Below, piece after piece: positions 7,397 through 24,147 of a stretch of DNA of 64,000 bases. A program made the translations under genes and the position numbers. Every line of letters begins with the position of its first letter. The first letter of the stretch is position 1. This stretch comes from a virus. The stretch lies in the IMG/VR virus record IMGVR_UViG_3300037485_001992, positions 2,885 to 66,884 of that record; one strand, written 5' to 3'. The notes below the pieces were generated by a model. That model was given only the letters and a program-made list of their open reading frames with translations. It did no database searches and was not told the origin of the DNA.

Positions 7397-7412
7397 AGTG
7401 TGGGTGAGACTA

Positions 7413-7832: not shown

Positions 7833-8017
7833 CGGTCCCTCCCCTGTGATTTTTCTTCCTGCGTCCAGCCGCGGGCCTTTGTATGGTCCGCGCGACCCTC
7901 TCGGATGTCCTTTAACTCCCAGTCCCACAGTCGTCTCCCAGCGCAGTCCGTCGTCAGCGTGTTGTCATCCATCATCCCGCCACACACATCACACCAGACG
8001 CAATCCTTGTGTTCCAT
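7823..8017 (-). CDS. Small Cys-containing hypothetical protein
   Basis: MEHKDCVWCDVC...TTDCAG; GGGAGG SD. Confidence 0.55.
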   Translation of the reverse strand: MEHKDCVWCDVCGGMMDDNTLTTDCAGRRLWDWELKDIREGRADHTKARGWTQEEKSQGRDRCA

Positions 8018-8116
8018 GGCTTCCCTCCCTGCGAATACCAACCGACCCTAAGTGTTTGGTCATACGCTGCGGGTCGGCGGGACTACATGTCCATTGAGAG
8101 TGGGAAGGGTAGCACG

Positions 8117-8557: not shown

Positions 8558-8558
8558 G

Positions 8559-8981
8559 TTACCTGCCAGCCCTTCTGAGATCCATCTCCAAATTGAAATG
8601 GGTCTTGTACTGCTGCAAGTCTGCAATCATCTCTTGCAGTGTCTCGATTGTCTTCTCTGCAGTTGCAAGCTTCTCAGCCATGCGGTTTGAGACCTCGTTG
8701 AAGAGAGGCATCTTCTCAAACGCCGTGGCGAGAGACTCCTTCACCACCCCGACAATCTCCAAGGGATTGCTCTTTCCCAGCAACGCAGCATCGAGGGAAG
8801 ACCGACTGATTTCGAGGGTGACTGGGAACGTGATTTCGAGAGTGACTCGCTTCGTGTAGCGGTCAGGAAGAGTGTCAACCGTCATCTGCGAGTTGGCAAA
8901 TGGGACGCCAAGCATCTGGCTAATGATAACAACAACTGCGTCGTCAATCTTGTTTGGTGTTGTGAATTTCAAGCTACTCAT
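8559..8981 (-). CDS. Hypothetical protein
   Basis: Tightly packed ORF with coiled-coil C-terminus. Confidence 0.6.
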   Translation of the reverse strand: MSSLKFTTPNKIDDAVVVIISQMLGVPFANSQMTVDTLPDRYTKRVTLEITFPVTLEISRSSLDAALLGKSNPLEIVGVVKESLATAFEKMPLFNEVSNRMAEKLATAEKTIETLQEMIADLQQYKTHFNLEMDLRRAGR

Positions 8982-9564
8982 ACGGCACCACCACGATAGG
9001 TGCAGTAGTGGTTCTGAATGCAAGTTCCGCCGCCCCTTCAATATTCCCACTCTTCAACCAAGCTACAATATGGTGAAGCTCATTGTGGCGATTCGCTGCG
9101 TCAGTATACCTCTTGTAAAAGTCCATCTTCTCTTGGAGGAGTCTCTCAATAACCTTCTTTTGCTCCTTCATGCAGGTCAAGTAGTTCTCAATCTTCCCCG
9201 ATGCAATCTCACACGTCTTCCGTGCCTCTTCGCAATTCTCTCCCATCCCCTTCAGAGTCTTTTCCTGGACAGACATCTTGAACTCTGCTGCGTTCAACTT
9301 CTTCTCAGCCGCCTCACGCTTCTTCTTCTCAGCCGCCTCACGCTTCTTCTTCTTCTCTTCGTCATACAGAGACTGCAGCGCAGTGAGGGATTCTGATGGG
9401 GAGAGTTGAAACACGGGTGGCTCATACTTCTTGATTGAGAGGTCCAAATACTCCTTTGCCATGTTGTCTATCTGTCCCTGGAACCCACGTATCCTGGCCC
9501 AAAGACTCTTCACTTCTCGTTCATGTTCGATTTGCAACTGAAGGTTTATGTCGTCAAAGTTCAT
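8974..9564 (-). CDS. Coiled-coil hypothetical protein
   Basis: ATGA-coupled ORF with KKKREAAE repeat. Confidence 0.65.
   Translation of the reverse strand: MNFDDINLQLQIEHEREVKSLWARIRGFQGQIDNMAKEYLDLSIKKYEPPVFQLSPSESLTALQSLYDEEKKKKREAAEKKKREAAEKKLNAAEFKMSVQEKTLKGMGENCEEARKTCEIASGKIENYLTCMKEQKKVIERLLQEKMDFYKRYTDAANRHNELHHIVAWLKSGNIEGAAELAFRTTTAPIVVVPYE
9301..9348. repeat. 24-bp tandem repeat x2, coding
   Basis: cttctcagccgcctcacgcttctt twice. Confidence 0.9.
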
Positions 9565-9800
9565 GGCATCGCCTCCCTAACTTCCATCTCAAACTCCACG
9601 AAGGGGTTGGCCCCTTCTCCCCAAACGTTGTTCACAGGAGCCCACTTCGCGCACCACTCACCCTCTGCAATCTTTGGGAAGTGGCTGACAGATTCGTAAG
9701 GGTCGTGAGGGATAGGAAACACCCTCGGGGACTCAGCCCTGCATTCTGTGTATTGCTTGTGCCACCACTGGCAGTTTCCGCACTTTAGCTTTTCGTTCAT
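9561..9800 (-). CDS. Small Cys-rich hypothetical protein
   Basis: CGNCQWW...ECR...WCAKW; SD present. Confidence 0.65.
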   Translation of the reverse strand: MNEKLKCGNCQWWHKQYTECRAESPRVFPIPHDPYESVSHFPKIAEGEWCAKWAPVNNVWGEGANPFVEFEMEVREAMP

Positions 9801-9812
9801 AGTCTGTCCTTC

Positions 9813-10037
9813 CTATGGTTCTTCGTCAAAATAGTAAACTGCATTCCCCTTCGCGCCTCTGCGAAGAAGAGCAACGCGAATCCCTCGTCTCTTCAGTCGC
9901 CGTGCTCTCCTTCTGTCTGATGTGATGGCCTGGAAGCGCCCTTCCGCCACGAGAGAAAGATTGCCGTTGCACCTGAAGTAGTAGCCAAGGATTCCCACGT
10001 TTGTTCGTCGCGCGACACGCGCCTTCCTCCCCGTCAT
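9813..10037 (-). CDS. Basic hypothetical protein
   Basis: ATGA-coupled ORF. Confidence 0.55.
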   Translation of the reverse strand: MTGRKARVARRTNVGILGYYFRCNGNLSLVAEGRFQAITSDRRRARRLKRRGIRVALLRRGAKGNAVYYFDEEP

Positions 10038-10285
10038 ATCTGGCCCCAGTCTTCGCCCATGAACTTGCGAAACTCAACGCTGCACTCGTCGCAAAGTCTG
10101 ACACGCGGGTAGATTCTCTTGTTCTCTCCCGCTACCACAAACTCTTCAACGTTCCGCAGCGAGAAGCCCATCGTCGTTGTCTGGCGCACTGGGCTTCCTG
10201 GTATCTCTTCAATTCGCAGCGCCCCAAAGCAGCGGGTGCAGTTCGTTGTACGTCCATTGACGCGGTGCATTGGTGTGTTGCTCAT
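10034..10285 (-). CDS. Zn-finger-like hypothetical protein
   Basis: CTRC...LCDEC; ATGA-coupled. Confidence 0.6.
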   Translation of the reverse strand: MSNTPMHRVNGRTTNCTRCFGALRIEEIPGSPVRQTTTMGFSLRNVEEFVVAGENKRIYPRVRLCDECSVEFRKFMGEDWGQI

Positions 10286-10476
10286 TTGCAATCCTTTACA
10301 CTTTCACAAGGTACCGTCGTCACTTCTCTGACTCTTACCACCCAGCAAATGTTTCGTTTCACATCTTTCTCAACCTTGAAACTCTCACAGAAGCCGGTGC
10401 TCCCGCCTTCCTCCCTCATACAAGATACCAGCAGAAGTCCTGCTATAAGTGCTCCATATCTCACCCTAGTTCTCAT
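10282..10476 (-). CDS. Small predicted lipoprotein
   Basis: MRTRVRYGALIAGLLLVS|C: basic N-region, hydrophobic core and lipobox; ATGA-coupled. Confidence 0.6.
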   Translation of the reverse strand: MRTRVRYGALIAGLLLVSCMREEGGSTGFCESFKVEKDVKRNICWVVRVREVTTVPCESVKDCK

Positions 10477-10727
10477 CTTTCCCTCCACTCTACTCTCTTT
10501 GGTCCTTGGCAAGCATCTAGCACATCAAGAATCATCTGTGCAATCACCCTCGCTGCATCATCATTCACGCACAAGACTTGTTGGAAGGGTCCATCCTCAT
10601 AAGCAAGGTACGCAGTGATGACGTCTGCCGTCGTTTGCAGCTCGACTCTCACCCGCTGCGTCTCGTCGCCACGGACTGCATTCGGGTCATAGAATGGTTT
10701 CGATTCTCTCACCCACGTTGCCATCAA
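10473..10727 (-). CDS. Hypothetical protein
   Basis: Coupled ORF with GAGGAGG SD. Confidence 0.6.
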   Translation of the reverse strand: MMATWVRESKPFYDPNAVRGDETQRVRVELQTTADVITAYLAYEDGPFQQVLCVNDDAARVIAQMILDVLDACQGPKRVEWRER

Positions 10728-11080
10728 TCCTCCTCATCGAAAGAGCAACTCATCGCGTATTCGTAACCTTCCCAGTTGTCCACCCCACACGCGTGGAGCA
10801 CGTCAAGCTTGTCAGCTTTCTTCGTCGCCCGCATGAGCGCCACTTCGAGTTCGTCTCGTTCCTTGCGAAGTGCGCTCAACGCTCGGTACAAGTCCAAAGC
10901 GTCATACGTCATCGCGTTGTGTGTCTGTTCTTCTCTGTACATGAGTGGTCTGCCAAGGCAGATTGGGCACCAGTGGTCATAGACGTTCGCCTGACCCACC
11001 GTGCCGGAGTACACCCAATCGCAAATCGTGTTGCACTCCCCGCAGTACCTGTCAGGCAAAACGTAGTTTCCTCGTTTCAC
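10724..11080 (-). CDS. Hypothetical phage protein
   Basis: CGEC/CPIC plus C-terminal LHACGVDNWEGYEYA motif, recalled as common in phages. Confidence 0.7.
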   Translation of the reverse strand: MKRGNYVLPDRYCGECNTICDWVYSGTVGQANVYDHWCPICLGRPLMYREEQTHNAMTYDALDLYRALSALRKERDELEVALMRATKKADKLDVLHACGVDNWEGYEYAMSCSFDEED

Positions 11081-11403
11081 TAGCCCTCCTTCTCAATGTT
11101 TCGGTACGGGCAATCGAGACGGCGTCCCATCTCAGGGATTTTTGCATCTTCCATGCAGCCATCCTCCCAACGAAACATGCACTCGTCGCGCTCAACGTCT
11201 CGACAAAGGCACGCTTCTTCATTGCTGCGAGTGAAGCTGCACTGCTTGCCAAACACTCTCTTGAGGAGTGCTCTTGCCTCGTCACGTTCTTCCTGCAACT
11301 TATTTACGTCTTCAAACGGTACCCAGGCTCCTTCAACGTGCTCGTCCATCTGCTGCCAACCGAATCCTCTTCCGCCGTGACTGGTCAGATTGTATCTATT
11401 CAT
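11080..11403 (-). CDS. Hypothetical protein
   Basis: ATG 11403 with GGAGG SD; Cys-rich C-terminus. Confidence 0.6.
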   Translation of the reverse strand: MNRYNLTSHGGRGFGWQQMDEHVEGAWVPFEDVNKLQEERDEARALLKRVFGKQCSFTRSNEEACLCRDVERDECMFRWEDGCMEDAKIPEMGRRLDCPYRNIEKEG

Positions 11404-11514
11404 TCCTCCATCCTCCTCTTGCACTCTTTGAGCCATCTCTTCCTCTGCAGCTTCTTGAGCCACCCCTTGCGCCGTGGCCTCTTAAACGCCCCGTCGTAAC
11501 AGGATTCCATCCAC

Positions 11515-11832
11515 TCACTCTTCCACCTGCGTGGGACGTGTGAGAACCTCATCGCTCCCCTCAAATATTGTGAATGGGCAGTCATCCCTTCGCTTCTCGT
11601 TCATGCTTTCCTCTCCGAGAAGGTTGCAAATAAAGTCTGTCGCTTCGAACCCACACTCTGCACACCCACGAGGGTAGGCCAATGTTCGTTTCGGGTATTG
11701 AATGATAAGTTTCGCAGCTTCCAGACGACGCTTCAAAATAGCGTTCTCTGCTTCTGCGTTCTCTGCGCGCTTCATCCACTCACCTAGAATCACGGCTCGG
11801 CTCTCGCCGTCATATGCCATCGGGTTAGTCAT
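11515..11832 (-). CDS. Hypothetical protein
   Basis: ATGA-coupled; PRGCAEC...DDCPF motif. Confidence 0.65.
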   Translation of the reverse strand: MTNPMAYDGESRAVILGEWMKRAENAEAENAILKRRLEAAKLIIQYPKRTLAYPRGCAECGFEATDFICNLLGEESMNEKRRDDCPFTIFEGSDEVLTRPTQVEE

Positions 11833-12089
11833 TCCTTCACCTCTTCCAACACACCAAACCCACGAAGCGACGGCCCCTTCTCGTCCTCAGTGTCAATCAC
11901 CAGCGACTCCAACTCAAACTTGACGTTGTTTTTCGGAAGGCCCAAATCTTCAGCGAAGATGGATTGCTGCTTCAATGATTCCTCTGCTGACGATTGGTGC
12001 TTGAAGTAGCGAACAACTTCGCTCAAAAGTCCGCTGCGCCCATCCTTGTTTATCACCTTAACTTTTGTAACCCAGAACGTATATTTCAT
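11829..12089 (-). CDS. Hypothetical protein
   Basis: ATGA-coupled to the polymerase stop. Confidence 0.6.
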   Translation of the reverse strand: MKYTFWVTKVKVINKDGRSGLLSEVVRYFKHQSSAEESLKQQSIFAEDLGLPKNNVKFELESLVIDTEDEKGPSLRGFGVLEEVKE

Positions 12090-14155
12090 AGAACGAACTC
12101 CTCTTCCCTCAGGTACGGTCGTAACATCTCATACTCTTTCACTGCTCTCTCATCAATGTAGATTTCCTGTGTCGCTACATGATTCCCTCCGGGTGTGATT
12201 ACTTTTCCATCTTGCACGAGTCCCGTTCCCCAGCAGTAGACGTCTTGGCGAATATCGACCATCACCCCCATGTTCCGCATATACGGGTCCATGTAGAAGT
12301 GGAATGCTTCGTTCATCACGCGAGCAAGCAAGTCGACTGACACCCAATCATTCAACTCCTCCTCAACGTAGATGGCATCGTGCAGCGTCATGATGGGTGT
12401 GAGCCCTTCGTCCTGGGCCAATGCGATGCTCTTTCGCATGATGCTCCCACCCACGCCTTGCACTGGCATGTTCCCCACGGAGCGGAAATTCTGGTTATCA
12501 GCAAGCATCCTCCACCCACACGGGAGACGAATCGTTCCCGACTGACGATACTCGCGTTGCACCGTTTCTTTCCACTCTGCGAAGTCACAGTAGGTCTCAT
12601 AAAAGAGGTCGATAAGTACCTGCGCTTCTTCCTCAGTACAAGCTTGCTTCGTGTCGTTCACAATCTTTTGTGACAGACCACGCGCCGTCATATCGTAAGA
12701 GATAGCGAGGACTGTCGCCTTGTACCTTTCACGTATGTCTTTGTGCGTGTGCTTCGTCGCTCCCTTCGGTGCTGCGCGAGATTGGATTGCGAACGCCATA
12801 TAGACGTCGCCTGACATGTAAGCTTCGAGCATCTTCTTGTCGCCAGAGAGAAGCGCAGAAAGAAGGAACTCTTCGCTTCCATAGTCGCTACCCACAATCA
12901 TCTTGCCGACTGGTGGGTGCACGAGACCCCTGAGCGCGGCGGATTTGAGGAAGACATAGCCCGTGGCAGATGGTTGGGAGCGGCTGCTCTGGGCGCCGTA
13001 GATTCCAAAGTATGGGCGCGCCCTTCCATCTTTTCCGAGGTAATCATAGAAGCTCTTCTTCGAAGTTTCCTTGAGCGGGCGGAAGCCATTGATGGACTGA
13101 TTGAAGCGCGAGAACCTCAATAGCTGATCCACCGGGTCGTCTCTAAATTCGTGTCGCGAACCACTCACCTTTGAGAGCGTCTCTTCGTCGAGGCATGGGG
13201 CTTTCGTGGGTGTGCGCTTCGGCCATCGCTTCCCGTATTTCTGGTCGACCCAATCCCCGATGAGCTTGACGTTTCGCGTGAAGGACTTTGTCTTTCTGTC
13301 CCAGGAGAACATCTTGAATCCAAGTTCTCGCTCAGTTCGTTTAATAATATCCCTCTGCAACGCTTGCAGTAGAGAAGGAATGTTAGCTGTAAGCGCCCGC
13401 AGCGCAGGCACGTCAACCGGGTAGCCGACTCCGACCATGCGAGCCGTGCGAGCAGCGTACTCTGCGCGACGATACTGCTCCCTGACCAACTCTTGTTCGT
13501 CCACCTCGTCTTCATGACTCGACAAATAATCCACCCAGTACGACCACATCTCAGAGTGAAGCGGTGCAAGGTGCTCAACGTCTGACGCGCAGTATTCCAT
13601 GATGCGCTTCTTCTCATCCTCATTGAATGGTCCTCCCCTGATGATGCGCCCGCGCACCTCATGTTTTTCCTGCGTGTCGACAATCTTCCCAAGCATCTTG
13701 AATGCCGCCGCCGCGTAGTTCATCTCCGCTTGCGAATAGTCTTCCGATGAATCCTTCTCTTCTCGCCACCTGGGAGGTACATCTGTAACGCGTACCTTTC
13801 CCTTGATGAGCTGCTTCCCGTATTCCAGTTCGTGGTTGTGGTTGAGCAGCTGCCGGTATTCAAGATAGAGGTCGACGGCCTTCCACGGCACACTATCGAA
13901 ACCAAGCGCCAGGAGCGCCCTAGACTCTGCTTCCCACGAGTAGGAGCTGAACACATAGCCTGACCTCGCCCAGACGTCTACGAACGCCTTAAACTGCCGC
14001 AGCGATGGTCCTCCGTCATAGAGCCATTGTGACATGACGGCGTGACGCTTTCCCCCATCCACCACCTGCCATGATACGCATACAGGTGTAACGTTCTCTT
14101 CTTCTGTGTTGCAGTATTCGAAGTCAAGATACACGAGTTTCTTCTGTGGTACCAT
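12086..14155 (-). CDS. polA: Family-A DNA polymerase with 3'-5' exonuclease domain
   Basis: ExoI LDFEY, ExoIII YCASDV, motif A SDYGSEE, motif B RERYKATVLAISY, NMPVQG, motif C LHDAI. Confidence 0.95.
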   Translation of the reverse strand: MVPQKKLVYLDFEYCNTEEENVTPVCVSWQVVDGGKRHAVMSQWLYDGGPSLRQFKAFVDVWARSGYVFSSYSWEAESRALLALGFDSVPWKAVDLYLEYRQLLNHNHELEYGKQLIKGKVRVTDVPPRWREEKDSSEDYSQAEMNYAAAAFKMLGKIVDTQEKHEVRGRIIRGGPFNEDEKKRIMEYCASDVEHLAPLHSEMWSYWVDYLSSHEDEVDEQELVREQYRRAEYAARTARMVGVGYPVDVPALRALTANIPSLLQALQRDIIKRTERELGFKMFSWDRKTKSFTRNVKLIGDWVDQKYGKRWPKRTPTKAPCLDEETLSKVSGSRHEFRDDPVDQLLRFSRFNQSINGFRPLKETSKKSFYDYLGKDGRARPYFGIYGAQSSRSQPSATGYVFLKSAALRGLVHPPVGKMIVGSDYGSEEFLLSALLSGDKKMLEAYMSGDVYMAFAIQSRAAPKGATKHTHKDIRERYKATVLAISYDMTARGLSQKIVNDTKQACTEEEAQVLIDLFYETYCDFAEWKETVQREYRQSGTIRLPCGWRMLADNQNFRSVGNMPVQGVGGSIMRKSIALAQDEGLTPIMTLHDAIYVEEELNDWVSVDLLARVMNEAFHFYMDPYMRNMGVMVDIRQDVYCWGTGLVQDGKVITPGGNHVATQEIYIDERAVKEYEMLRPYLREEEFVL

Positions 14156-14164
14156 GGTTTCCTC

Positions 14165-14380
14165 TTACAGTATTGGGAGATAGACTTTTTCGAAATACCA
14201 ACGGGCGACAGCCACCATCCACCCGGCGTTGGGTGGAGATGGCGGGGCGAGATAAACAGAATGTTCATTGAGCATGGCGATGCGCCACTCGCGTTTCTCG
14301 TAGATGATGTGATCGCCAAGAGCGAGGGTCACAAGCTCTTCCCCATCCTCTCCATGCCAGGCCCACCAGCTTCTATCCAA
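14165..14380 (-). CDS. Hypothetical protein
   Basis: Fills the gap in the operon; start uncertain. Confidence 0.5.
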   Translation of the reverse strand: MDRSWWAWHGEDGEELVTLALGDHIIYEKREWRIAMLNEHSVYLAPPSPPNAGWMVAVARWYFEKVYLPIL

Positions 14381-14589
14381 GAGTTGTACATGTCAGTGAA
14401 AGAGACTCCCCGGTGCTCTGGCTTGGAGAACCAACCGATTAGCGCAGGGACCTTTGAAAACTGGTTATTGCGCTCTCCCTCTCTGAAGATGGCTCGAAGC
14501 TCCTCAATAGTACCCTCGTTCTCTCTTCCCTTGTCAGCGAAAGTATAAAACAACCGAAAAAATGTTTCCCAGAACTCTTCGCGCGTCAT
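14329..14589 (-). CDS. Hypothetical protein, weakly similar to its upstream neighbour
   Basis: ATGA-coupled; LIGWFSKPEHRGVSFTDMY resembles LLTWLNKPDNWGVAVSEMY in 14586..15050. Confidence 0.65.
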   Translation of the reverse strand: MTREEFWETFFRLFYTFADKGRENEGTIEELRAIFREGERNNQFSKVPALIGWFSKPEHRGVSFTDMYNSWIEAGGPGMERMGKSL

Positions 14590-15050
14590 AAAATGAACTC
14601 CTCTTCATCATCGTCTGCAGGAAGGCTATCTGCAAATCGCTTCCGTTTCAGGATTGGGTCTTCCTCAGGCTGTTCCTTCGGAGTGTCTGGCTCCCCACCT
14701 GTCCGAAGATCAGCCCCAGCTTCAGCCAGACTTTTACCTCTGCTTGCCTTTGCAGCTCTCTCCTCTTCCTCAATAAATCGTCGATACATCTCAGAGACTG
14801 CGACTCCCCAATTATCCGGCTTATTAAGCCATGTCAGTAACTCCTGCTCCCTGACAGGGTTGTGGTATCCGAGATTCAGATCCGTAGCCAGTCTATGGAC
14901 CCAACCCAGATGGGAAATCCCTCGCTCCGAGAAAATCTCGAAATGACTCAAGAATACTAGCCACTCTCTCACGCTTGGGTGGTAGGCATTCTTGACGTAC
15001 TTCTTATCGTAAAAATCCTTCTCACCAACGCCCCTGTCATCAACTTTCAC
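14586..15050 (-). CDS. Hypothetical protein carrying a copy of the SSB C-terminal tail
   Basis: Ends KRKRFADSLPADDDEEEFIL. Confidence 0.75.
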   Translation of the reverse strand: MKVDDRGVGEKDFYDKKYVKNAYHPSVREWLVFLSHFEIFSERGISHLGWVHRLATDLNLGYHNPVREQELLTWLNKPDNWGVAVSEMYRRFIEEEERAAKASRGKSLAEAGADLRTGGEPDTPKEQPEEDPILKRKRFADSLPADDDEEEFIL

Positions 15051-16714
15051 AACACAAACCCCTCTTCTTCCTCTTCAATTGACGCTTCAGTCAACTCATT
15101 ATCTCGACCCTTCCAGCGAACCCCGTGAAATACTCTGGCCCCGAAATCCCCAGACTTCATACACCCCGTCTTGTTTTTCGTGTCAGTTCCCACCATACCC
15201 TTTATCAAGTTGTCAAAAGTTTGAAGAACTGTTTCTTTCTCCCGTACCAACGTTGTGCGACTGTCGGGAGAGTTCCTCATCGCGCGCTGGTAGTGCGGGC
15301 GAAACCACTTCCACAAATCTTCTTCGTACACCTTTGCGGTATTGTCCACGACTAAATTATTCTCTATGTAGGACCTAACTACGTTCCTGATTGGCTTGTC
15401 GCAACGGAGTTTGATATTGTCCCACATGGTTTCTGGCACTTTGATGTCTCGATACTTCCCGTCTTGCTTCTTGCACAGCTTCTCATGAACGACTCCACAA
15501 GCATGAAGAAAATGCCAGAACTCTTCCCGGTACCTGCTGATGACTTCAGAGTCTGCTTCCTCCTCATTGAAAGGCTGCACGACAAAATAGAGAAGACGAG
15601 TTCGCATTGCATTGTTTGTTGTGTCCACCTCAGGTGCAACATTCGAATGGGCCACGACACGAGCGAAGAGCTTCGCGGCGAAGCTACTGATAAACTTTAT
15701 TTCCATCTCCCCCATGTCACCGCCAGTCAATTGCTTGACCAGTTCCGAGCCGAGATAGTATTTGTTTGAGCAGTCGGGGGCCATGGCAAATCGTTTCAAG
15801 TAGCACTTGGCGGCGGTGAACTGATTGGCATACGACGTCTTCTGAAGGACGACGGCAATCTTTTGAAGGTGCTCATACACCACGTTCCAAAACGTCGATT
15901 GACCCGAGTGACCCAGTGACTGAGACCACACCATCTGTCTTCCGAAATCCTCTGGGTCGAAACATTTCCAGATGAAAGCCATCAACTGGTCTGGATGGTC
16001 GACCCTTGCGATAAACCTTTTCAGATGGGGCCAAGGACCGGGAACACACTTCGTCGAGTCGAACCTGACGAACGCATTCTCGTCCCATGCCATGAGAGGG
16101 AGAGAGCCAGACAGAATGCACTCCTCAACATCCTGGTCGATGAGAATCTTCTTGAAAGCCCAAAGCATGACGTCCCCAATCTCTGGGATAGCCACTCGCT
16201 TAGCTGCCATGTAAAGGGTGACGTTGTCCTCAATTATTTGCTGAACGTCTTTCCTCCACGCAGAATACTCGGCTGCATTCTGCTGCCGGATTATGCTGAT
16301 TATCTCTGCAAGTTGGATAGAGCTGGTGGGGAGGAATCCTACTTTGTACAGGTCGAGGGAGGTCTCGGTAAGGATGTAGGTTGAAAGCCTTCCGTCCCTT
16401 GTCAGGAGTCTCACATACTTTTTCAAGTATTGTATTGTTCGATTCGTTAGGCTCTGGTCCACGTTCCTGACGTTGGTCTTCACCTGGTTGTCCCCCGCCT
16501 TCGCCTCTTTCTTCTTCTTGTTCTTGACCGTATCTAACATTTCCTGAGACTCCGATTCTTTCTTAATCCCATAAACCTGACCTACTGCATATGCCGTCAC
16601 TTCCTCTTCCTTACTAGCAAACTCGTTGTCCGCTTTCCAGACAAGTTTGGTTCCAACCATTTCAGACAACTTATCCAATGGTTCGACTGGCTTCACAACC
16701 TCTGTTTTACCCAT
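15047..16714 (-). CDS. D5/P4-like SF3 helicase-domain replication protein
   Basis: SLGHSGQSTF, KRFAMAPD, LVKQLTGGD, HSNVAP, AMRTRL. Confidence 0.8.
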   Translation of the reverse strand: MGKTEVVKPVEPLDKLSEMVGTKLVWKADNEFASKEEEVTAYAVGQVYGIKKESESQEMLDTVKNKKKKEAKAGDNQVKTNVRNVDQSLTNRTIQYLKKYVRLLTRDGRLSTYILTETSLDLYKVGFLPTSSIQLAEIISIIRQQNAAEYSAWRKDVQQIIEDNVTLYMAAKRVAIPEIGDVMLWAFKKILIDQDVEECILSGSLPLMAWDENAFVRFDSTKCVPGPWPHLKRFIARVDHPDQLMAFIWKCFDPEDFGRQMVWSQSLGHSGQSTFWNVVYEHLQKIAVVLQKTSYANQFTAAKCYLKRFAMAPDCSNKYYLGSELVKQLTGGDMGEMEIKFISSFAAKLFARVVAHSNVAPEVDTTNNAMRTRLLYFVVQPFNEEEADSEVISRYREEFWHFLHACGVVHEKLCKKQDGKYRDIKVPETMWDNIKLRCDKPIRNVVRSYIENNLVVDNTAKVYEEDLWKWFRPHYQRAMRNSPDSRTTLVREKETVLQTFDNLIKGMVGTDTKNKTGCMKSGDFGARVFHGVRWKGRDNELTEASIEEEEEGFVL

Positions 16715-16749
16715 ATCTCCCTCAGATCCATAAGGAATGCACTGAAACG

Positions 16750-16792
16750 TCTTTACCGCACCTACCGACGACTTGTCAACTGCACGACAAGT
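16750..16792 (-). promoter_or_regulatory. Sigma70-like promoter of the replication operon, overlapped by an inverted repeat
   Basis: Minus strand TTGACA (16779-16774)-N18-TAAAGA; inverted repeat ACTTGTC-N8-GACAAGT at 16771-16792. Confidence 0.5.
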
Positions 16793-16920
16793 AGAAAAAG
16801 TTTTTATTTTTGTGGAGCGTATATAAGTTACTGAGTTTCTGGGGAGGGGTGAAATGTAAAAACCACACTTACTACTTTGAAAAGGGGCTTATATATTCCT
16901 TGTTTTTTTTTCCCTAAAAT
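16793..16920. other. AT-rich tract: candidate replication origin or divergent promoter region
   Basis: A/T runs and inverted TATATAAG (16820)/CTTATATA (16888) next to the helicase gene. Confidence 0.35.
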
Positions 16921-16974
16921 CGCGGGAGCCTAATAGAATGGGGGGGTCGAAAATCGTAAGAGTCAAAATGACAA

Positions 16975-17696
16975 GAGTTGGCGTGTTACCAATGAATCAT
17001 TGCGATACGGGTACTCGCAATTCTTCATCTCTGTCGTTTCGATAATTCTCACGATAGTTTCCTCGACACCGAGCCGCGACTGTTACCAATCGAAGCCACC
17101 ATAATGGGGGCTATTTGCCCCGGGGAGCTAATGGTTTCCCATGCCTGGCGTACATTACTCAGTGAGTTCTTGATGTAGACCGGGTCAAATTCCAAAGCTC
17201 CGCTCCTCGCACGATCTGGGAAAAGGGTGCCATGGCTCTGTGAAGCCTGTCAAGCGTGTGACCACCCAAAAGTATTCATCTTCAGATTATGTTCCGAGTT
17301 TCTTATTGACACGCAGGTGCATCCTATGCGAGGGTCCAATTCGTAAGCCGAGGCGCTGTCGATCGATTTGTTGGGAATGGCTTCCTGCAGCAGAACGATC
17401 CCTCGACTGATTGAAGTACCCGTTGACCCAATGTTTCACCAAGGCACTCACCATGGAATCCCAATCCCGCCTTGTGAGATGTTCAGTCCTATCGGGTGTT
17501 GCGAAGGGTAGCTCCCTTCCGCAACAGAGCCGCTTCTCTCGATGCTCCGGCAGGGACAGCAGTAACCCATGAAGCAAGAATCGCCCTTATCTGCCGTGTG
17601 TCGACCGGAGATAAGGGCTTCTTGGTTGAAGGGCGGAAACGCTAAACTTCATCGCTATGTGGCCCTGATTCATCCTTGAGTCAGGGCTCTTTTGTT
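16975..17696 (+). ncRNA. Candidate large structured ncRNA (~720 nt), family unknown; 5' end approximate
   Basis: About 15 consecutive stems with G-U pairs that work only on +, a GAAA tetraloop, a terminal terminator and no + strand ORF of 60 aa or more. Confidence 0.65.
17662..17696 (+). terminator. Rho-independent terminator
   Basis: GCCCTGATTC-ATCCTT-GAGTCAGGGC followed by TCTTTTGTT; it could also act on the converging late transcript. Confidence 0.7.
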
Positions 17697-17709
17697 ATAG
17701 GGGGATCAC

Positions 17710-20700
17710 CTACTCTGGCGTAGGTTCCTCTGGTGTCTCCTCTTCCGAAGAGTCTGGGGTATAAGCGGGGTCAGGCTTGTACTGACCCACACCCTCCCCA
17801 CCCATGATTGTTGTTTCCAGGTCTTGTTTATGTTGAGCTTCCTTCCGCCTTGCTTCTCTCATTTGGTAGAGGAAGGAGAGAGGGATAGCTTTCTCTTTGG
17901 CGAGATACTCAAGCATATTATCAGGGGTGAAGTCATAGAGGGTTTCGTGAAGTTCCTTCCTTGGAGTGAGGACGGTGAGGAGCTTGAACATGCTGGCCAT
18001 GAAGGAGTTTTCCTCTCCCGCGAGAGGCATTCCTTCTGGCGCCGTCTTGAGATTGAGTTGGTCTTTCTCAGCCATGCCTTGGAGTTCTTGGAGGATGTGT
18101 GGATTGCCTCCATCCAAATAGGCATAGCCAAGCTTCCCAGGAGAGTAGACAAAGTCGCGAAGAAGTGGACCAAGGATGTTTGGTGTCGTTTGCACCGCGA
18201 GGTCAATGATTCTCATCCAATCGTCGTGGAGCTTCGCGTTGAGCGCGGCTGTGTCCGCCGTTCCGTCACCCGTCGCTGTTGCTAGGGATTTCACGAGACT
18301 CGCAGTCCGCCAGAACAAATCGAGAAGAATCGCATTCTGCATTGACCCGACCTTGAGGGAGGGTTCCATCTGGTTTTTCGCTTCTTGCTTCGGGTCCTGT
18401 CCAACGATGGACTGGAAGCCAGCCAGAGGAATCATCTTTGTTAGGCTAGTCATACCAGTGGTCTTGCTTGCAGCCAGCCAGAACGAGGATAGTCCATACA
18501 GACCTGCTATCGTGGCCACAGCCACGCCAACGTGGCCCGCGTCCCGTCCCCGTTCCGTCACCAGCGTATGGCCTGCTGCCAGCAGGCGATAGAGCCCTCC
18601 TGTGAGCGGGTTGAAGAACTGGGCGGTACTTGGCAGCATCCGGTCGATGATTCGCACCATGGCGGGCACGTTGCCTGGGTCGTAGCGGGTCAGGGACTGG
18701 TGGCAGAAGGCCGTCGCGAACCGTTCGTATGCCGCTGTGCCCTCCGTTCCCAATTCCTTTACCAATGACATGGCTATCTGGGCAGTGTCTACCCTAGACC
18801 CCGTCACTCCTGCAAGCGGTTTCTCCAAGGCCGCAGCGGCAGCGCGGAACATTGCCCCCTCGCCTTGATCCGAAACAGACCTGGCCGCAGCCCCTGCCGT
18901 CTCCCAAATGTTCGCTGCCTGGCCCAGTACGATGCGATACGTGGTTGAGTCAGCGTTTTCCTTTATTGACCCTTGGATGTGCTCGAAAATAGGGTCAGCG
19001 AGTCCCGCAAATCCTGCGTGAGTTTTCTTCCAAAGAGGTGAGACGTCCCAATTGATTCTCCCCAGTTTCGACTGCATCTTTGCTGATAGTGTGGGGTTGA
19101 GCCCAGCAATGAGTTGTGCGTTTATTTCCGCATACTTTGGCGATGGGACGTTGCCTGCGACTGCTGCCGCTTCTACCATGTCTTCGTTGTTCAAAGCTCG
19201 TGCTACCATGCCTTTCATGAATCCTGGCACACTGCGGACAAGCGTCTTGAAAGCGTTAGTGGCTTGGAAGGGATTCAACGCCTGCATCTGCGCGTTCTGT
19301 CCAAAGTTCTGTGCAGCTTGCCCAAGACTCACAAGCAAATAGTTTGCTTGGATGAGAGGTGACAAGACCTTCGCGTGCTTAAATCCTGGTAGCTTATTAA
19401 AGACGTACTCAAGTGCACGTCTGGTATCGGGTCCACTGGTAGAAAGTCCCCCGAGAAAGGAGCGCGTTAAAACTGTAGCGAAGGCTCCGCAACCCGCGTT
19501 TTCCATGAGTAACCCCTTCTCCCAGAGCCGTCTGCGGGGTTCGCGCGAGTGCAAATCTTGGAAGAGCTTGTGGGTCGCAGAGTGGAACAAATCATCGGGG
19601 TGCATGAGGTCTGCGAGCGAATCATTCACCTGGGCCTTCATGTTCTGGCCCGTTTCATTCGTCCTGACTTGGCGACCAAACATAGTGTCCATCGAGCTAA
19701 GTGATTCCATATTTGACGTGTCGTATGTCACTCTGCTCGTTATTGAGGCATTCGTCTCCAGTCGGGCGGGCTGGTACTCAAGCACCGCCACCCGCGTCCC
19801 GTCCCGCGCGTTGAGTCTGCTGTTGTCGAGGTTCCACTCATTGACTTTCAATTCATCGTGCTTCTGCCAGAGTTGGATATATTTTATTCCCATCTCGTGT
19901 GACTCTGAGTCCAAACCTTGAACTCTCCAGTAACGTTTCAATGAGTCCGCCATGTCGATTGCTTGGTTGTCAATCTCCCGAGATTTAACACCACCCTTCC
20001 ACTCTTCCATGATGCGTGTGAGCGACTCATCGGTCTGACCTTGCGCCACCCACTTGCGAAACACCATTCCAAGTTCTGTCTCGACACCCTTCTGGACGAG
20101 GCGACCCTTAATCCCACGAAGTCCAATGATGCTCTTCTGAGCCATCTCTATAAATGGTTTGTGACCTTGGAAGTCGATGTAAGACTTGCTTCCCACTTTC
20201 AGTGCATCTCGTTCATCAAAGAAGCCCATCACAAGCTTATCAGCCCGCGCTTTTCCAATCATCTTCCCCTGCGCCATACGAGACACATCTGCAGCCACCG
20301 CATAGCCAGTCTCTTTCGAAATGACTGTTGCCATGACCTCTTGGTTTGCGATATTAGAGAAGAACTCCAAGTACCTTGGGCTAGCTGAACCTTTCCTGTA
20401 GTATTTCGCAAGCTGCATGGCTGCGCCTAAATACCCAGACTTATCGAAGTCATTCGAAGGGGTGAGAAACCAAGACGCTACAACTGAAACGTTCAAGTCA
20501 TTTTTGTCTTTACCCAGCACGTCAGAGAAGACGTTCTTCAGTTCGTCCATCACGAGTGGTGTCGTGTTCTTAATGAGACCAAAGACGTTTTCTGCCTCCT
20601 CAGCCCGTGTCACGATCCAAGTTGGGTCCTTCGCCAGACGGTATCTTTGCACCATGCTACCAGTCATAAACTCAACAAGGTTCTTCGTGTCCTTCTTCGA

Positions 20701-23700
20701 TATTACTCCCGTATCTGCGTAGCGTTCAGCAAGGTCATAGAGGGCGTATGCCCGTTTGTCGAGTTCACGCTGCATCCGAGACACCTTGAAAGCTTGCCTC
20801 ATCATCTTCAGGTTTCGGGCAATGCCTGGGACAGACGCCTTGTCAGACTTGATTTGTGAGTCAAGCAAAGCAATGCTCTTCTTCCACATAGCTCCCTCTG
20901 CTGAGAGACCGTAGAGCGTGTCTGCTGCATTCCCCACCCGTGTCACGAAGCGTTTGTAGTCAGCATTGTTAAACCCATTAAACCCGATCACTTCCTTAAC
21001 GAACTTCCTATTTTGCAATAGACGCAAATAGCCAATGGACTCTGGTGAGATTGAGACTGAACCTGTCCGTTCGAGAGAATCTCCAATCTCTTCCGCAATC
21101 ATCCCAACAACGTTTTGGTAGTATTTGCTGTCCGTGAGACCTGGCACCTGGTGCTTACCAACTAGCTCTGCGTTCAAGTCTCCTAGCGCCACGCTTGCAG
21201 CTTTCGATGGTTTATCGTAGAGAGCTTCTTTCTGCAGATTTATGCTTCGACTTTTGACGATACGTTCGTCTATCGCTCCACGCTGGATCAAGGCTTCTTG
21301 CATAGATGCCTTAATCTCCTGACCCTTCCTGGCCGTGTAGCCAACGTCCTCAAGTTGCTTTTGTATCTTTGCTGGAAAAAGTAGCATCTCTGACTTGGCG
21401 ATTGTCCCACCTTTGTTCACTCTGTCAATGATGTCTTGAAGCTGTTGCTTCCTATTTTCTGGGAAGCTAGGGTCTTGGAGATACATTGATAACTTGTCGA
21501 GCTTCGAGGGACGGGGGCGAGCCGCCCCTTCCGGAGTGGGAGAGGTGAGCTTGAGAGATTGATCCAAATCATTACTTGCCCCAGCCATTGACTTGAGTTG
21601 CCTGTCGATGAATTCTGCGTCAAGAGAAGTCTTGAAACGGTATTGGCGCAGCTTTTCCTCCTGCAGCATCTTCGTCATGCGAAGCTCAGCAGAATTCATC
21701 CCAATCACTTTTCTCTTACCCTGCATTGAGGTATAGAGACCAATATCCTCCATAGCCAAGTTTACAATGTTTTTTATCTCTTGTGGTCCACCGACTTTGA
21801 GTAACTTTTCTGCAGATTTGGTCGGGGATATTCCTGCTAGTTCTGTGTCGAACACAGATGTAACGTTAGTCCTACCAAGCTTCTCGACGGCTTGGAAGTG
21901 CTTAGCGAACTCTGGTTTATTCCCTACGAGGTCCATGAGTTCTGCGAGTATCCGTGGGTTTGAAGCGTCTGCAGCTGCAGCAGCGACCTTCAGATAGTCT
22001 TGCATGAAAACACGGTAGGGGAGATTGTCAGAGCCTGAAGTGAAGAGGCCCTCCATGGTATCAGCGAGGAACTCTCCACCCGCAAGTTTGAAGCCTTTGA
22101 CCTCTTCGCCACGAAGCACGCGAATGAGGGATTCCGTGTCATTCAAAACGTGGTTTGGGATTTGCGGAAGTTGCTGAGATAAGTTAGACGATGCCTCAAT
22201 CTTATTCTTCAACATTGTGTACTGGGAGCTATCACCTTGGTTCTTGAGTTTCTTTTGGTCCGCCGAGGAGCGAGAGACCTGGTCGTCAAGAAGCTTCTGC
22301 ATCATCTGCTTGTTTGTGCGACCCACAGGAGTGATGCCATCTGGGTCTCCACCCGTGGATAACATATCGAGATACCCACGCAGCTTCGGGCTCTTTGAGC
22401 CTTCCTCCAGCAGCATCTCCATGGCCTCAGGAGGGAGTTGACCAGCCTTGATTTTTGTCTGAGTTTCAGAAACCATCTTACGAAGTTCCAAACCATTGAT
22501 GGTATTCTGTCTGAACTCTTCGTAAGGAACACCTTCTGGCAGATGGGTATCGACGTACTTCTTCACGAAGGAAGGAAGCTTGTCATACTCAGGTGTGCGG
22601 AGGATGGCCTTCATTGGGTCACGCGCGCGGTAGATTGCTGCCATGGCAGGTTCAACGAGAGCGAAGGTACCACCAAGCGCCACTCCGCCCACGAATGCCT
22701 CTCGCTCCGTCCCCTCGGGGGCGCCCACCGCTCCAAGGACCGCAGGGGTCAGAACCTTCGTCGCTGCCTTCCCCGAGATGGCGAGTCCCTTCGCAAGAGC
22801 CGGGGAGGTCTTCTCCAGTTCCGCAAGCTTCAAAGTTAACTTAGGTGATACTCTTGTAACACCTTGGACCGCTCCCTCAATGACTTGTCCAGGTTTGCCA
22901 AGGGCCTCAAGAACCTTGCCCGTTTTAGACGCAAGGCTCGTCGCTTTGGCCCCGGCGCTTAGGCCCTTACCCAGCATCTTCAACGAGCCGCCTGCCGGGA
23001 CGAACATGGAGGCGATGCTCTGCCAGTTTTCCATCGCCTGGGATTCGACCTGGCCCTTTTGGGAGTCGAGGATTGCCCTCCACCCCTCGCGTTCAAGCTC
23101 TTGCGCCGAGTCGCCGCGGTGAGCGTCTTTCACCTCAACACCATTGGCGTAGGCCGTGTCGCCGTCCCACACGATGTCGATGGGGATAGGGATGTTCTGG
23201 GTATTCTTGAGGAGATCAAGCTTCTCGTCCGTCGTCATCTTTGTGAGCTTCCACGACGGGAGGTTGAAGGCAGCTTCATCCACCACCCGTGCCACGCGCT
23301 TCGCCATCGCACCAGCGTCTGTGTCATCAGCCATGACTCCACCACGCGCGCCAAGGATATTGCGCCAGACTTCTTTCGAAACGTGTGTGCGCTGTTCTGC
23401 GTAGTTGAGCATGAGTTCGTTTTGCTGATAGCGGGGAAGGTCTGACACGGCCACCGCTTCGGGGTCGATGAGGCCGTACTTGTCTATGATGGGCTTAGAA
23501 AGGATGCGCTTCACGTTTTCCGTGACGTCTTTGTCTGTCCCCGAGATGCCCGATTGCTTCTTTCCCTCTGCAAACTGCGTCACGTTTTGGATGATGGAAC
23601 CGAGGAACGTGAGAGGAGAGAAGGCTTCGCTCCTTCCCTCCATCGCCACGTTCACGTCGAGAGGGAAGGAGGATTCAGTCTTCCCCAGACGTGCGAAGGT

Positions 23701-24147
23701 CTTGCCCACTGCGCCAAGGAACGAAGGCTCTGTCCACCCTTCTTTTTGTTTGAAAGCTTCAATCTCTCCGCTCCCCGCGCCACGACTTTCCATCTCTTTG
23801 ACGGCTGCTGCGATGCGCTCGTTTGTGGTGATGCGATTGAGGAGTTCCTTTCGTTTGGCGTCTGCTGCAAGCACATCTTTTTGTAAGTCACCAGCGTGCT
23901 TCTCGTTAATGGCCTTATCTGAAAGCTTCGTTGTGTCGAGTGGCTCTGCAGAATTAGGTTCATAATTGAGAAGTTTCTGAACTTCAGGGCTCGCCGCCGG
24001 CACGGGCTTTTTAGCCGGTGCTGACGGTTCATAATCGAGAAGAGACTGAAGTTCAGGGTCCACAGGTGCAGGAGTTTCTGTTGCGGGTGGCTCATATTTG
24101 AGCAAGTCATTAAGCTCCCCCGGTGAGAGGGACATCTCGTTTGCCAC
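17710..24147 (-). CDS. Very large internal virion/DNA-ejection protein (2145 aa)
   Basis: Size, helical composition and last position in a podovirus-type virion operon; no domain recognised. Confidence 0.65.
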   Translation of the reverse strand: MANEMSLSPGELNDLLKYEPPATETPAPVDPELQSLLDYEPSAPAKKPVPAASPEVQKLLNYEPNSAEPLDTTKLSDKAINEKHAGDLQKDVLAADAKRKELLNRITTNERIAAAVKEMESRGAGSGEIEAFKQKEGWTEPSFLGAVGKTFARLGKTESSFPLDVNVAMEGRSEAFSPLTFLGSIIQNVTQFAEGKKQSGISGTDKDVTENVKRILSKPIIDKYGLIDPEAVAVSDLPRYQQNELMLNYAEQRTHVSKEVWRNILGARGGVMADDTDAGAMAKRVARVVDEAAFNLPSWKLTKMTTDEKLDLLKNTQNIPIPIDIVWDGDTAYANGVEVKDAHRGDSAQELEREGWRAILDSQKGQVESQAMENWQSIASMFVPAGGSLKMLGKGLSAGAKATSLASKTGKVLEALGKPGQVIEGAVQGVTRVSPKLTLKLAELEKTSPALAKGLAISGKAATKVLTPAVLGAVGAPEGTEREAFVGGVALGGTFALVEPAMAAIYRARDPMKAILRTPEYDKLPSFVKKYVDTHLPEGVPYEEFRQNTINGLELRKMVSETQTKIKAGQLPPEAMEMLLEEGSKSPKLRGYLDMLSTGGDPDGITPVGRTNKQMMQKLLDDQVSRSSADQKKLKNQGDSSQYTMLKNKIEASSNLSQQLPQIPNHVLNDTESLIRVLRGEEVKGFKLAGGEFLADTMEGLFTSGSDNLPYRVFMQDYLKVAAAAADASNPRILAELMDLVGNKPEFAKHFQAVEKLGRTNVTSVFDTELAGISPTKSAEKLLKVGGPQEIKNIVNLAMEDIGLYTSMQGKRKVIGMNSAELRMTKMLQEEKLRQYRFKTSLDAEFIDRQLKSMAGASNDLDQSLKLTSPTPEGAARPRPSKLDKLSMYLQDPSFPENRKQQLQDIIDRVNKGGTIAKSEMLLFPAKIQKQLEDVGYTARKGQEIKASMQEALIQRGAIDERIVKSRSINLQKEALYDKPSKAASVALGDLNAELVGKHQVPGLTDSKYYQNVVGMIAEEIGDSLERTGSVSISPESIGYLRLLQNRKFVKEVIGFNGFNNADYKRFVTRVGNAADTLYGLSAEGAMWKKSIALLDSQIKSDKASVPGIARNLKMMRQAFKVSRMQRELDKRAYALYDLAERYADTGVISKKDTKNLVEFMTGSMVQRYRLAKDPTWIVTRAEEAENVFGLIKNTTPLVMDELKNVFSDVLGKDKNDLNVSVVASWFLTPSNDFDKSGYLGAAMQLAKYYRKGSASPRYLEFFSNIANQEVMATVISKETGYAVAADVSRMAQGKMIGKARADKLVMGFFDERDALKVGSKSYIDFQGHKPFIEMAQKSIIGLRGIKGRLVQKGVETELGMVFRKWVAQGQTDESLTRIMEEWKGGVKSREIDNQAIDMADSLKRYWRVQGLDSESHEMGIKYIQLWQKHDELKVNEWNLDNSRLNARDGTRVAVLEYQPARLETNASITSRVTYDTSNMESLSSMDTMFGRQVRTNETGQNMKAQVNDSLADLMHPDDLFHSATHKLFQDLHSREPRRRLWEKGLLMENAGCGAFATVLTRSFLGGLSTSGPDTRRALEYVFNKLPGFKHAKVLSPLIQANYLLVSLGQAAQNFGQNAQMQALNPFQATNAFKTLVRSVPGFMKGMVARALNNEDMVEAAAVAGNVPSPKYAEINAQLIAGLNPTLSAKMQSKLGRINWDVSPLWKKTHAGFAGLADPIFEHIQGSIKENADSTTYRIVLGQAANIWETAGAAARSVSDQGEGAMFRAAAAALEKPLAGVTGSRVDTAQIAMSLVKELGTEGTAAYERFATAFCHQSLTRYDPGNVPAMVRIIDRMLPSTAQFFNPLTGGLYRLLAAGHTLVTERGRDAGHVGVAVATIAGLYGLSSFWLAASKTTGMTSLTKMIPLAGFQSIVGQDPKQEAKNQMEPSLKVGSMQNAILLDLFWRTASLVKSLATATGDGTADTAALNAKLHDDWMRIIDLAVQTTPNILGPLLRDFVYSPGKLGYAYLDGGNPHILQELQGMAEKDQLNLKTAPEGMPLAGEENSFMASMFKLLTVLTPRKELHETLYDFTPDNMLEYLAKEKAIPLSFLYQMREARRKEAQHKQDLETTIMGGEGVGQYKPDPAYTPDSSEEETPEEPTPE

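What the first reader, a model, noticed from the sequence alone, without database searches (positions are those of the whole stretch)
16975..17696. Orphan ~720-nt highly structured RNA between the replication and virion modules
Seen: in an otherwise gene-dense region, ~720 nt lack a credible ORF but fold by eye almost end to end. Examples: ATTGCGA/TCGCAAT within 16992-17028; GGGGC/GCCCC 17107-17121; a long stem at 17143-17185; a multiway junction at 17213-17288; TTTGTTG/CAGCAGA within 17358-17407; AATGTTTCAC-C-AAGGC/GCCTT-GTGAGATGTT within 17409-17488; TGTTGCG-AAGGG/CCCTT-C-CGCAACA 17497-17526; GCCCTTATCT/AGATAAGGGC within 17575-17624; GGCG-GAAA-CGCT within 17627-17651; then a terminator. The wobble pairs are G-U only on +, opposite to the flanking genes. 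TGTTACCAAT occurs twice (16984, 17081). Established: phages encode large ornate ncRNAs of this size class (GOLLD, ROOL). Inference: this is an independently transcribed RNA. I see no tmRNA, RNase P or intron landmarks, so it may be a new class.
Basis: partly seen in the sequence, partly recalled or inferred. Interest (0 to 1): 0.82.

Follow-up and report, generated by a model that had tools for sequence, protein, structure and literature searches.

The report
Structured non-coding spacer between phage modules
A 1-kb gene-free stretch in a novel phage holds two strongly folding segments that prefer opposite strands, so it is probably a regulatory boundary with perhaps one small RNA gene, not a single large ornate RNA.

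Summary
The gap is real. 16715-17709 (995 nt) lies between a 2145-aa virion gene and a DUF5906 primase/helicase gene, both on the minus strand. It shows no coding signal in any frame, no protein-family remnant, no tRNA and no Rfam match.

It does not fold end to end as one plus-strand RNA:
- 17380-17700 (module B) has five stable hairpins and the strongest plus-strand intrinsic terminator in the window. It folds far better than shuffles, more so on plus (z -4.4 to -5.5) than on minus (z -2.8).
- 16930-17140 (module A) prefers the minus strand (z -4.9, against -2.0 on plus).
- 17140-17380 is no better than shuffles.

The claim that wobble pairs occur only on plus holds only for module B.

Covariation could not be tested. 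Helicase relatives exist as proteins, but their contigs could not be fetched. The one reachable relative, a fragmented phage in a MAG, breaks at both edges of the gap. It also carries a hairpin cluster just past its giant gene, with no sequence similarity.

My best reading (0.4) is a plus-strand non-coding transcript containing module B, convergent on the late operon. Cis-acting mRNA hairpins or a DNA-level element remain serious rivals. The scan holds no look-alike stretch on other DNA.

The parts
16715..17709 (.). 995-nt non-coding gap between the late (virion) operon and the replication operon
   Evidence: ORF list. Stops in all six frames, none opened by one reassigned stop. No codon-usage signal. 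No Pfam or PHROG match for 10 stop-to-stop frames. GC and AT skews are near zero here, unlike in the flanking genes.
16715..16930 (-). AT-rich zone upstream of the helicase gene: RBS GAGGGAG before the ATG, and a weak promoter-like TTGACA (16779-16774), 18 nt, TAAAGA (16755-16750), read by eye
   Evidence: Sequence. GC 0.36-0.45. No excess structure. The promoter-like site fails the scan's criteria (0 sites). In the relative, a 36-nt element about 90 nt upstream of the helicase recurs in its divergent control region.
16930..17140 (-). Module A: 210-nt segment folding best on the minus strand, with a 122-nt irregular hairpin at 16946-17067 plus small hairpins. It contains both TGTTACCAAT copies.
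   Evidence: z -4.9, 0 of 200 shuffles, MFE equal to centroid. Plus strand only z -2.0. Helices and G-U pairs listed. Only 2 of 1194 background 210-nt windows of the phage fold better for their composition.
17140..17380 (.). Spacer without excess structure, about 50% GC
   Evidence: z +1.4 (plus) and +0.4 (minus). Local z between 0 and +1.3. Highest positional entropy.
17380..17700 (+). Module B: five stable hairpins (17430-17483, 17498-17525, 17575-17624, 17627-17650 with a GAAA loop, 17661-17688) favoured on the plus strand
   Evidence: z -5.5 (0 of 100) and -4.35 (0 of 100) on plus; z -2.8 on minus. G-U pairs on plus: 3 in 17430-17483 and 2 in the terminator stem. Only 1 of 782 background 320-nt windows is better.
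17661..17698 (+). Intrinsic terminator on the plus strand: 12-bp stem, 4-nt loop, CTTTTGTTAT, ending about 12 nt before the stop codon of the giant gene
   Evidence: Top-listed terminator-like site of 1-20000, and the longest-stemmed plus-strand site in 1-60000 (12 pairs, the next plus-strand sites have 8). There is no T-run on the minus side (sequence).
17710..24147 (-).
   Evidence: ORF. No Pfam, PHROG or PDB-sequence match. No DxDGD motif. A homolog with 28-33% identity lies in G001:C124.
15047..16714 (-). 555-aa DUF5906 primase/helicase, first gene of the replication module
   Evidence: Pfam PF19263. PHROG primase and helicase families. Homologs P0002-P0014.

Best explanation
The gap is a composite, non-coding boundary between the late virion operon and the replication operon of a novel phage. 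It is not one RNA folded end to end.

My most likely reading concerns module B (17380-17700). I take it to be the structured 3' body of a non-coding plus-strand transcript. Its 5' end is unknown. It would be about 320 nt if it starts in the spacer and up to about 880 nt if it starts in the AT-rich zone. It runs towards the giant gene and is stopped by an intrinsic terminator just short of that gene's stop codon. Such an RNA would be a stable phage-encoded regulatory or insulating RNA.

Module A (16930-17140) is a separate minus-strand element upstream of the helicase promoter zone. It is probably a processing or stability hairpin of read-through late transcripts, or a DNA-level site.

Shown: the region is non-coding; two segments have excess structure; they prefer opposite strands; the terminator has plus polarity.

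Inferred: that the plus strand is transcribed at all, where the RNA starts, and what it does.
For: - The region is non-coding.
- Module B: z -5.5 and -4.35 on plus against -2.8 on minus. After correcting for composition, plus is favoured by about 12 kcal/mol (shuffle means).
- All 5 G-U pairs in hairpin 17430-17483 and in the terminator stem lie on plus.
- A GAAA tetraloop is closed by G-C on plus only (sequence).
- The terminator has a U-tract on plus only, and it has the longest stem of any plus-strand terminator-like site in 1-60000.
- No minus-strand terminator-like site lies in 16500-17900.
- Only 1 of 782 composition-matched windows of the same phage folds better than module B.
- In the one reachable relative, the 125 nt at and beyond the giant gene's end is also a hairpin cluster (z -5.7 and -5.2). 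It lies on the far side of a terminator and shows no sequence similarity to the window.
Against: - No sigma-70-like promoter on either strand in 16500-17900 (0 found, 1.7 expected).
- There are no homologous gap sequences, so there is no covariation test.
- There are no expression data.
- Module B is also significantly structured on minus (0 of 100 shuffles).
- Two of its hairpins are perfect palindromes that say nothing about strand.
- Module A prefers minus and the centre is unstructured, so a long plus RNA would carry 400-500 nt of poorly folding sequence.
- The relative's terminator is bidirectional and its hairpins show no strand preference once composition is allowed for.
- Other places in the phage reach similar local z-scores, for example 6361-6480 and 61081-61200.
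- I chose the module boundaries after seeing the scan, which favours them against grid windows.
Confidence: 0.4

Rival explanations
1. There is no separate RNA gene. The hairpins act in cis on minus-strand transcripts: 3' protection or termination of the late polycistronic mRNA just after the giant gene, RNase III/E-type processing sites in read-through RNA, and a structured region ahead of the replication operon. This is how T7-like phages punctuate long mRNAs (the T7 comparison is from my own knowledge).
For: All large genes in 1-61 kb are on minus. Module A prefers minus. Module B also beats all 100 shuffles on minus. The relative has a hairpin cluster with a terminator that works on the minus strand at the same position. 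The replication module has T7-like content: family A polymerase and a gp5.9-like domain.
Against: The window's terminator hairpin has no U-tract on minus. The G-U pairs of module B would be A-C mismatches on minus. Four hairpins lie beyond the first one after the stop codon, where a terminated late mRNA would not reach.
Confidence: 0.28
2. A DNA-level element: a replication origin or primosome-loading site next to the primase/helicase gene, or the packaging or terminal region of a T7-like linear genome whose map starts with the replication genes and ends with the giant internal virion proteins.
For: A 250-nt AT-rich zone (GC 0.36-0.41) lies beside long imperfect palindromes and directly upstream of the primase/helicase. 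The gene order fits a rotated T7-like map. Contigs of two relatives stop at or near the edges of the gap: G001:C124 ends 99 nt after the giant gene, G001:C754 starts 146 nt before the helicase, and a diverged contig in run X1 ends at 17870.
Against: The gap has no iterons, only a 2-copy 10-mer compatible with chance. Clear tandem repeats sit elsewhere, at 60709-60808 and 61284-61331. Two assemblies of the source sample read straight through the gap. Strand-specific G-U pairs are not expected for double-stranded DNA sites. The break at C754 is explained by a 36-nt repeat.
Confidence: 0.15
3. One reading: one independently transcribed, globally folded ~720-nt plus-strand RNA (16975-17696), a new class of the GOLLD/ROOL size.
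For: The whole stretch has z -3.8 on plus against -1.9 on minus. A 5'-3' closing helix has p>0.5 on plus. GC is at genome level with zero skew over 650 nt. There is a plus-strand terminator.
Against: The middle 240 nt is no better than shuffles, and 17040-17380 has z -0.4. The 5' third prefers minus. The multi-way junctions are not well defined, since the centroid differs from the MFE and entropy is high. There is no promoter, no Rfam match and no homologs.
Confidence: 0.1
4. Remnant of a decayed plus-strand moron gene whose terminator survives. The structure would be incidental.
For: The plus-strand terminator has no ORF in front of it. GC is close to the genome mean.
Against: No family match for any of the 10 stop-to-stop frames at E<=1 beyond noise. 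The only ORF over 60 aa has no homolog. No residual codon signal or skew. Two segments rank among the best-folding in the genome.
Confidence: 0.07

Closest known systems
GOLLD and ROOL large ornate RNAs
   Same: Phage context, a size class of several hundred nucleotides, non-coding, and many helices. Per the passages of PMC5737381 that I read, ROOL averages 581 nt, and GOLLD and ROOL often lie in prophages.
   Different: No match to any Rfam model, even at E<=10. No tRNA gene in the 64-kb window, whereas both classes are often near tRNAs (PMC5737381). No well-defined multistem junctions or pseudoknots. Structure is confined to two ~200-300-nt segments on opposite strands.
Intrinsic (rho-independent) terminators and terminator-proximal small RNAs
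   Same: A G+C-rich 12-bp hairpin followed by a U-tract on plus, facing the end of a convergent gene. A second hairpin, 17583-17618, is followed by TTCTTGGTT (sequence).
   Different: About 280 nt of further stable hairpins precede it, with no gene or recognisable promoter upstream on that strand.
RNase III processing hairpins between genes of T7-like phages (from my own knowledge, no call)
   Same: Long irregular hairpins in intergenic positions of long same-strand operons, in a phage with T7-like replication genes.
   Different: No sequence or family test exists here. The gap is far longer than a T7 intergenic site, and part of the structure favours the antisense strand.

Membership tests
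GOLLD RNA | Match to the curated covariance model in Rfam | tested here: not met
   No family reached gathering score in the window. At E<=10 on 16600-17800, only mir-4477 and PreQ1 noise appeared.
GOLLD RNA | Often located near tRNA genes and in prophages (PMC5737381 passage) | tested here: inconclusive
   The context is phage, but there are 0 tRNA genes in the window. This feature is frequent in the family but not obligatory.
ROOL RNA | Match to the curated covariance model in Rfam | tested here: not met
   as for GOLLD.
ROOL RNA | [quoted passage not shown] | not testable with these tools
   There are no homologous sequences and no pseudoknot prediction. Single-sequence folds show mostly local hairpins.
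Intrinsic terminator | Stable G+C-rich hairpin immediately followed by a U-tract on the transcribed strand | tested here: met
   Plus strand, 17661-17688: 12 pairs, 6 of them G-C, 4-nt loop, then CTTTTGTTAT. This is not met on minus.
Independent ncRNA gene | Own promoter and a discrete transcript | tested here: inconclusive
   0 sigma-70-like sites in 16500-17900, but the host and its promoter type are unknown. No RNA data could be laid.
Conserved structured RNA class | Compensatory base changes among homologs | not testable with these tools
Iteron-type replication origin | AT-rich unwinding region plus several repeated initiator-binding sites | tested here: not met
   The AT-rich zone is present. 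The only repeat is a 2-copy 10-mer. Multi-copy tandem repeats lie at 60.7 and 61.3 kb instead.

The most novel reading that the evidence does not exclude
Module B alone, or the whole 720-880 nt, is the founding member of a new class of phage-encoded structured RNA. It would be transcribed against the direction of every neighbouring gene and placed between the last virion gene and the replication operon. It would be conserved in position and hairpin-rich character, though not in sequence, in a relative with about 40% helicase protein identity.
Probability: 0.12. Interest if true: 0.7.

Novelty: new member of a known kind. Interest (0 to 1): 0.34.

Why it matters
Phage genomes are packed, so a kilobase without genes needs a reason. 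If module B is a real plus-strand RNA, it would add a structured phage RNA from an almost unsampled lineage. No DNA or protein match was found among 50,697 phage records, and only a handful of helicase relatives exist among billions of proteins. It would also give a concrete case of a non-coding transcript converging on a late operon. If instead the hairpins are cis-acting mRNA or DNA signals, the finding is ordinary phage punctuation. It would then be useful mainly for annotating the module boundary.

Tried and rejected
Rfam: nothing at gathering score over the whole window. Only noise at E<=10 on 16600-17800. ARAGORN: 0 genes.

Alternative genetic code: no frame opens when one stop is reassigned.

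Hidden or decayed gene:
- Codon-usage log-likelihood is flat.
- Pfam and PHROG searches on 10 of the 18 stop-to-stop frames of 40 aa or more gave only E 0.04-0.3 noise.
- The 96-aa ORF 17287-17577(-) has no homolog and is not itself in the protein collection.

Homolog hunt for covariation, all without a usable gap sequence:
- blastn and tblastn against phage records.
- The search for related loci in viral contigs with the helicase, alignments A1 and A2, the giant protein's C-terminus, and A5.
- Metagenome contigs with A1 and with P0003.
- Genome contigs gave one 1639-nt contig, L002, with 146 nt upstream of the helicase.
- Searching that MAG (G001) with the gap DNA gave only chance hits with E>1.
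- Contig-end overlaps were not found.
- 401 genomes of G001's order held only distant DUF5906 proteins.
- Pairwise alignment of the relative's flanks with the window showed no convincing similarity.

Sequencing runs:
- One run was listed. It is DNA and possibly the source of this contig. No RNA holder was listed.
- Laying its contigs showed one 27,869-nt contig identical across 15000-20000.
- A diverged 1859-nt contig covered only parts of 17870-19533, so there is no variation data for the gap.

Other ideas tested:
- Giant protein as a virion RNA polymerase with hairpin promoters: no DxDGD motif and no family or PDB match. Dropped.
- TGTTACCAAT as an iteron: only 2 exact copies. A 10-nt repeat in 1 kb is about as expected by chance.
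- CCATTCTATTAGG, which resembles the relative's 36-nt element: 9 matches at up to 3 mismatches against 8.6 expected.
- Complementarity of the 17583-17592 arm to the helicase start region (pair I6): by my own estimate this is within chance. It is a lead only.

I did not see the supplements of PMC5737381, which hold the full list of 224 motifs. A motif described there but absent from Rfam would have been missed.

Full report
Setting. The window is bases 2885-66884 of a 66,884-base virus record rated 92% complete and linear. Nearly all large ORFs lie on the minus strand. On that strand the order is:
- portal (PHROG portal), further virion genes, and a 2145-aa gene with no family match;
- the gap;
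- a 555-aa DUF5906 primase/helicase, a family A DNA polymerase, and a protein with a T7 gp5.9-like domain, an Rrf2-type regulator, a PD-(D/E)XK nuclease and an SNF2 helicase.

The phage is very isolated. No DNA or protein match was found in 50,697 phage records. No look-alike stretch appears in earlier notes of this scan.

Is the gap non-coding? Yes. Between 16714 and 17710 the longest ORF is 96 aa with a TTG start. Every frame carries 9-15 stops of mixed kinds, so no single stop reassignment opens one. A codon-usage log-likelihood trained on 15 long genes of this phage is positive in the correct frame of both flanking genes. It stays at or below about zero in all six frames from 16700 to 17650. 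Ten of the 18 stop-to-stop frames of 40 aa or more gave only noise against Pfam and PHROGs at E<=1. The 96-aa ORF has no homolog. GC skew and AT skew, strongly negative in the flanking genes, are near zero across the gap. 16800-17050 is AT-rich (GC 0.36-0.41), and 17050-17700 sits at about the genome's 0.53.

Is it a known RNA? No. No Rfam family reaches its gathering score anywhere in the window. At E<=10 only microRNA and PreQ1 noise appears. There is no tRNA or tmRNA.

Does it fold end to end on the plus strand? Only in part.
- A scan with 120-nt windows every 40 nt (43 windows, 60 shuffles each), followed by larger cuts (100 shuffles each), resolves this into three parts.
- Module B, 17380-17700: z -5.5 on plus and -2.8 on minus (0 of 100 each). 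It was repeated with the fold tool, giving z -4.35, 0 of 100.
- Module A, 16930-17140: z -2.0 on plus (6 of 100) but -5.6 on minus (0 of 100). It was repeated, giving z -4.9, 0 of 200, with the MFE equal to the centroid.
- Between them, 17140-17380 has z +1.4 and +0.4, and 17040-17380 has z -0.4. Positional entropy on plus is highest at 17215-17334 and lowest in the module B hairpins.

Against the phage's own sequence as background:
- A regression of MFE on GC and G+U content places module B(plus) below all but 1 of 782 windows of 320 nt.
- It places module A(minus) below all but 2 of 1194 windows of 210 nt. I set the module boundaries after the scan, which favours them somewhat.
- On a fixed grid of 533 windows of 120 nt, z<=-3 occurs in 9 of 533 on each strand. 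17521-17640 (z -4.3 on plus) is among the three lowest on plus. Comparable values occur elsewhere, for example 6361-6480 and 61081-61200.

Strand evidence.
- In module B, the 10-bp lower stem of hairpin 17430-17483 has three G-U pairs. The 12-bp terminator stem has two, which shortens it to 7 bp on minus.
- GGCG-GAAA-CGCT (17632-17643) gives a GNRA-type loop on plus only (sequence).
- Hairpins 17498-17525 and 17583-17618 are perfect palindromes and say nothing about strand.
- In module A, the 122-nt hairpin 16946-17067 is built from helices GUCGAGGA/UUUUCGAC, UCGUGAGA/UCUUACGA and UCGAAA/UUUUGA, whose four G-U pairs lie on minus.

Terminators. The hairpin 17661-17688 followed by CTTTTGTTAT heads the terminator-like list for 1-20000. 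With 12 pairs it has the longest stem of any plus-strand site in 1-60000. The longer or more G+C-rich sites are on minus, at 39125-39092 and 50847-50824. Its minus side has no T-run, and no minus-strand terminator-like site lies in 16500-17900. A unidirectional plus-strand terminator about 12 nt short of the stop codon of a convergent gene is most simply read as the end of a plus-strand transcript. No sigma-70-like promoter was found on either strand (0 against 1.7 expected). The host is unknown, and the only hint is that a relative's contig was binned with a Rhodoferax MAG.

Relatives.
- The helicase has few relatives: four besides itself by word search (39-59% identity), and 55 representatives at E<=1e-30 by full HMMER search.
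- Pattern scans of the viral, metagenome and genome collections returned a single locus: a 1639-nt contig of a MAG with 146 nt upstream of the helicase.
- The same MAG (G001) holds the giant-gene homolog on contig C124, which stops 99 nt past the gene.
- It also holds, on contig C262, the counterpart of window 59.1-60.4 kb with its repeat-bearing divergent region. Synteny is therefore conserved, but the relative's gap itself is not assembled.
- The 125 nt at the end of C124 fold into four hairpins, including a bidirectional terminator (z -5.7 and -5.2, 0 of 200 each). They show no convincing sequence similarity to the window.
- The 146 nt before the relative's helicase are unstructured (z -0.2). 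They carry a 36-nt element that recurs in the relative's divergent control region, which suggests the replication operon has its own promoter close to the gene.
- A hairpin cluster just beyond the giant gene is thus a conserved positional feature. This argues for function but does not settle the strand.

Interpretation. The data fit a composite boundary: an AT-rich promoter and RBS zone for the helicase operon, a minus-favoured long hairpin (A), an unstructured spacer, and a plus-favoured run of hairpins ending in a plus-strand terminator (B).

The comparison with GOLLD and ROOL is one of size and phage context only. [quoted passage not shown] I took this from passages of PMC5737381 found with 'find' (abstract, ROOL section, discussion). 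For the cryo-EM preprint 10.1101/2024.12.08.627333 I saw only the search listing. None of the testable features is met here.

Verdict. This is a real and unusual non-coding stretch with two genuinely structured segments, but not the single large RNA proposed. Its nature cannot be settled without relatives' sequences or strand-specific RNA data. Interest is moderate.

Noticed in passing
window 6340-6500 (inside the PD-(D/E)XK nuclease gene 4955-6715, minus strand): The most structured 120-nt grid window of the whole scan (z -6.1 on plus, -5.0 on minus). On minus, 161 nt fold into a three-way element with z -4.6, 0 of 200 shuffles, inside a coding region.
   Followed up: partly
window 60709-60808 and 61284-61331: Three to four tandem 25-nt repeats and two tandem 24-nt repeats lie in the divergent intergenic region. 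The syntenic region of the relative (G001:C262) has 17-nt tandem repeats. This is a likely origin or control region. 61081-61200 also has z -4.4 on plus.
   Followed up: partly
L002 23-58 and L016 1501-1536 (relative phage in MAG G001): A 36-nt element (94% identical) stands about 90 nt upstream of the relative's helicase gene and again in its divergent control region. Each time it points towards the downstream genes, so it is a candidate shared promoter or operator. The window has only a 13-nt partial look-alike at 16929-16941(-), which is no more than chance.
   Followed up: partly
window 39092-39125 (-) and 50824-50847 (-): Strong minus-strand intrinsic terminators (15-bp and 8-bp G+C-rich stems with T-runs) lie inside the virion and lysis modules. 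They mark transcription units in a genome otherwise read in one direction.
   Followed up: no
window 17583-17592 versus 16710-16720: The 5' arm of hairpin 17583-17618, read on plus, is complementary (one mismatch) to the RBS and start codon of the helicase mRNA (pair I6). By my estimate this is within chance, but it would be a target if a plus-strand RNA exists.
   Followed up: no
   Followed up: partly
window 10724-11080 (-): A 118-aa protein has a C-terminal match to the T7 gp5.9 RecBCD-inhibitor family (Pfam PF25708, E 8.5e-10).
   Followed up: no
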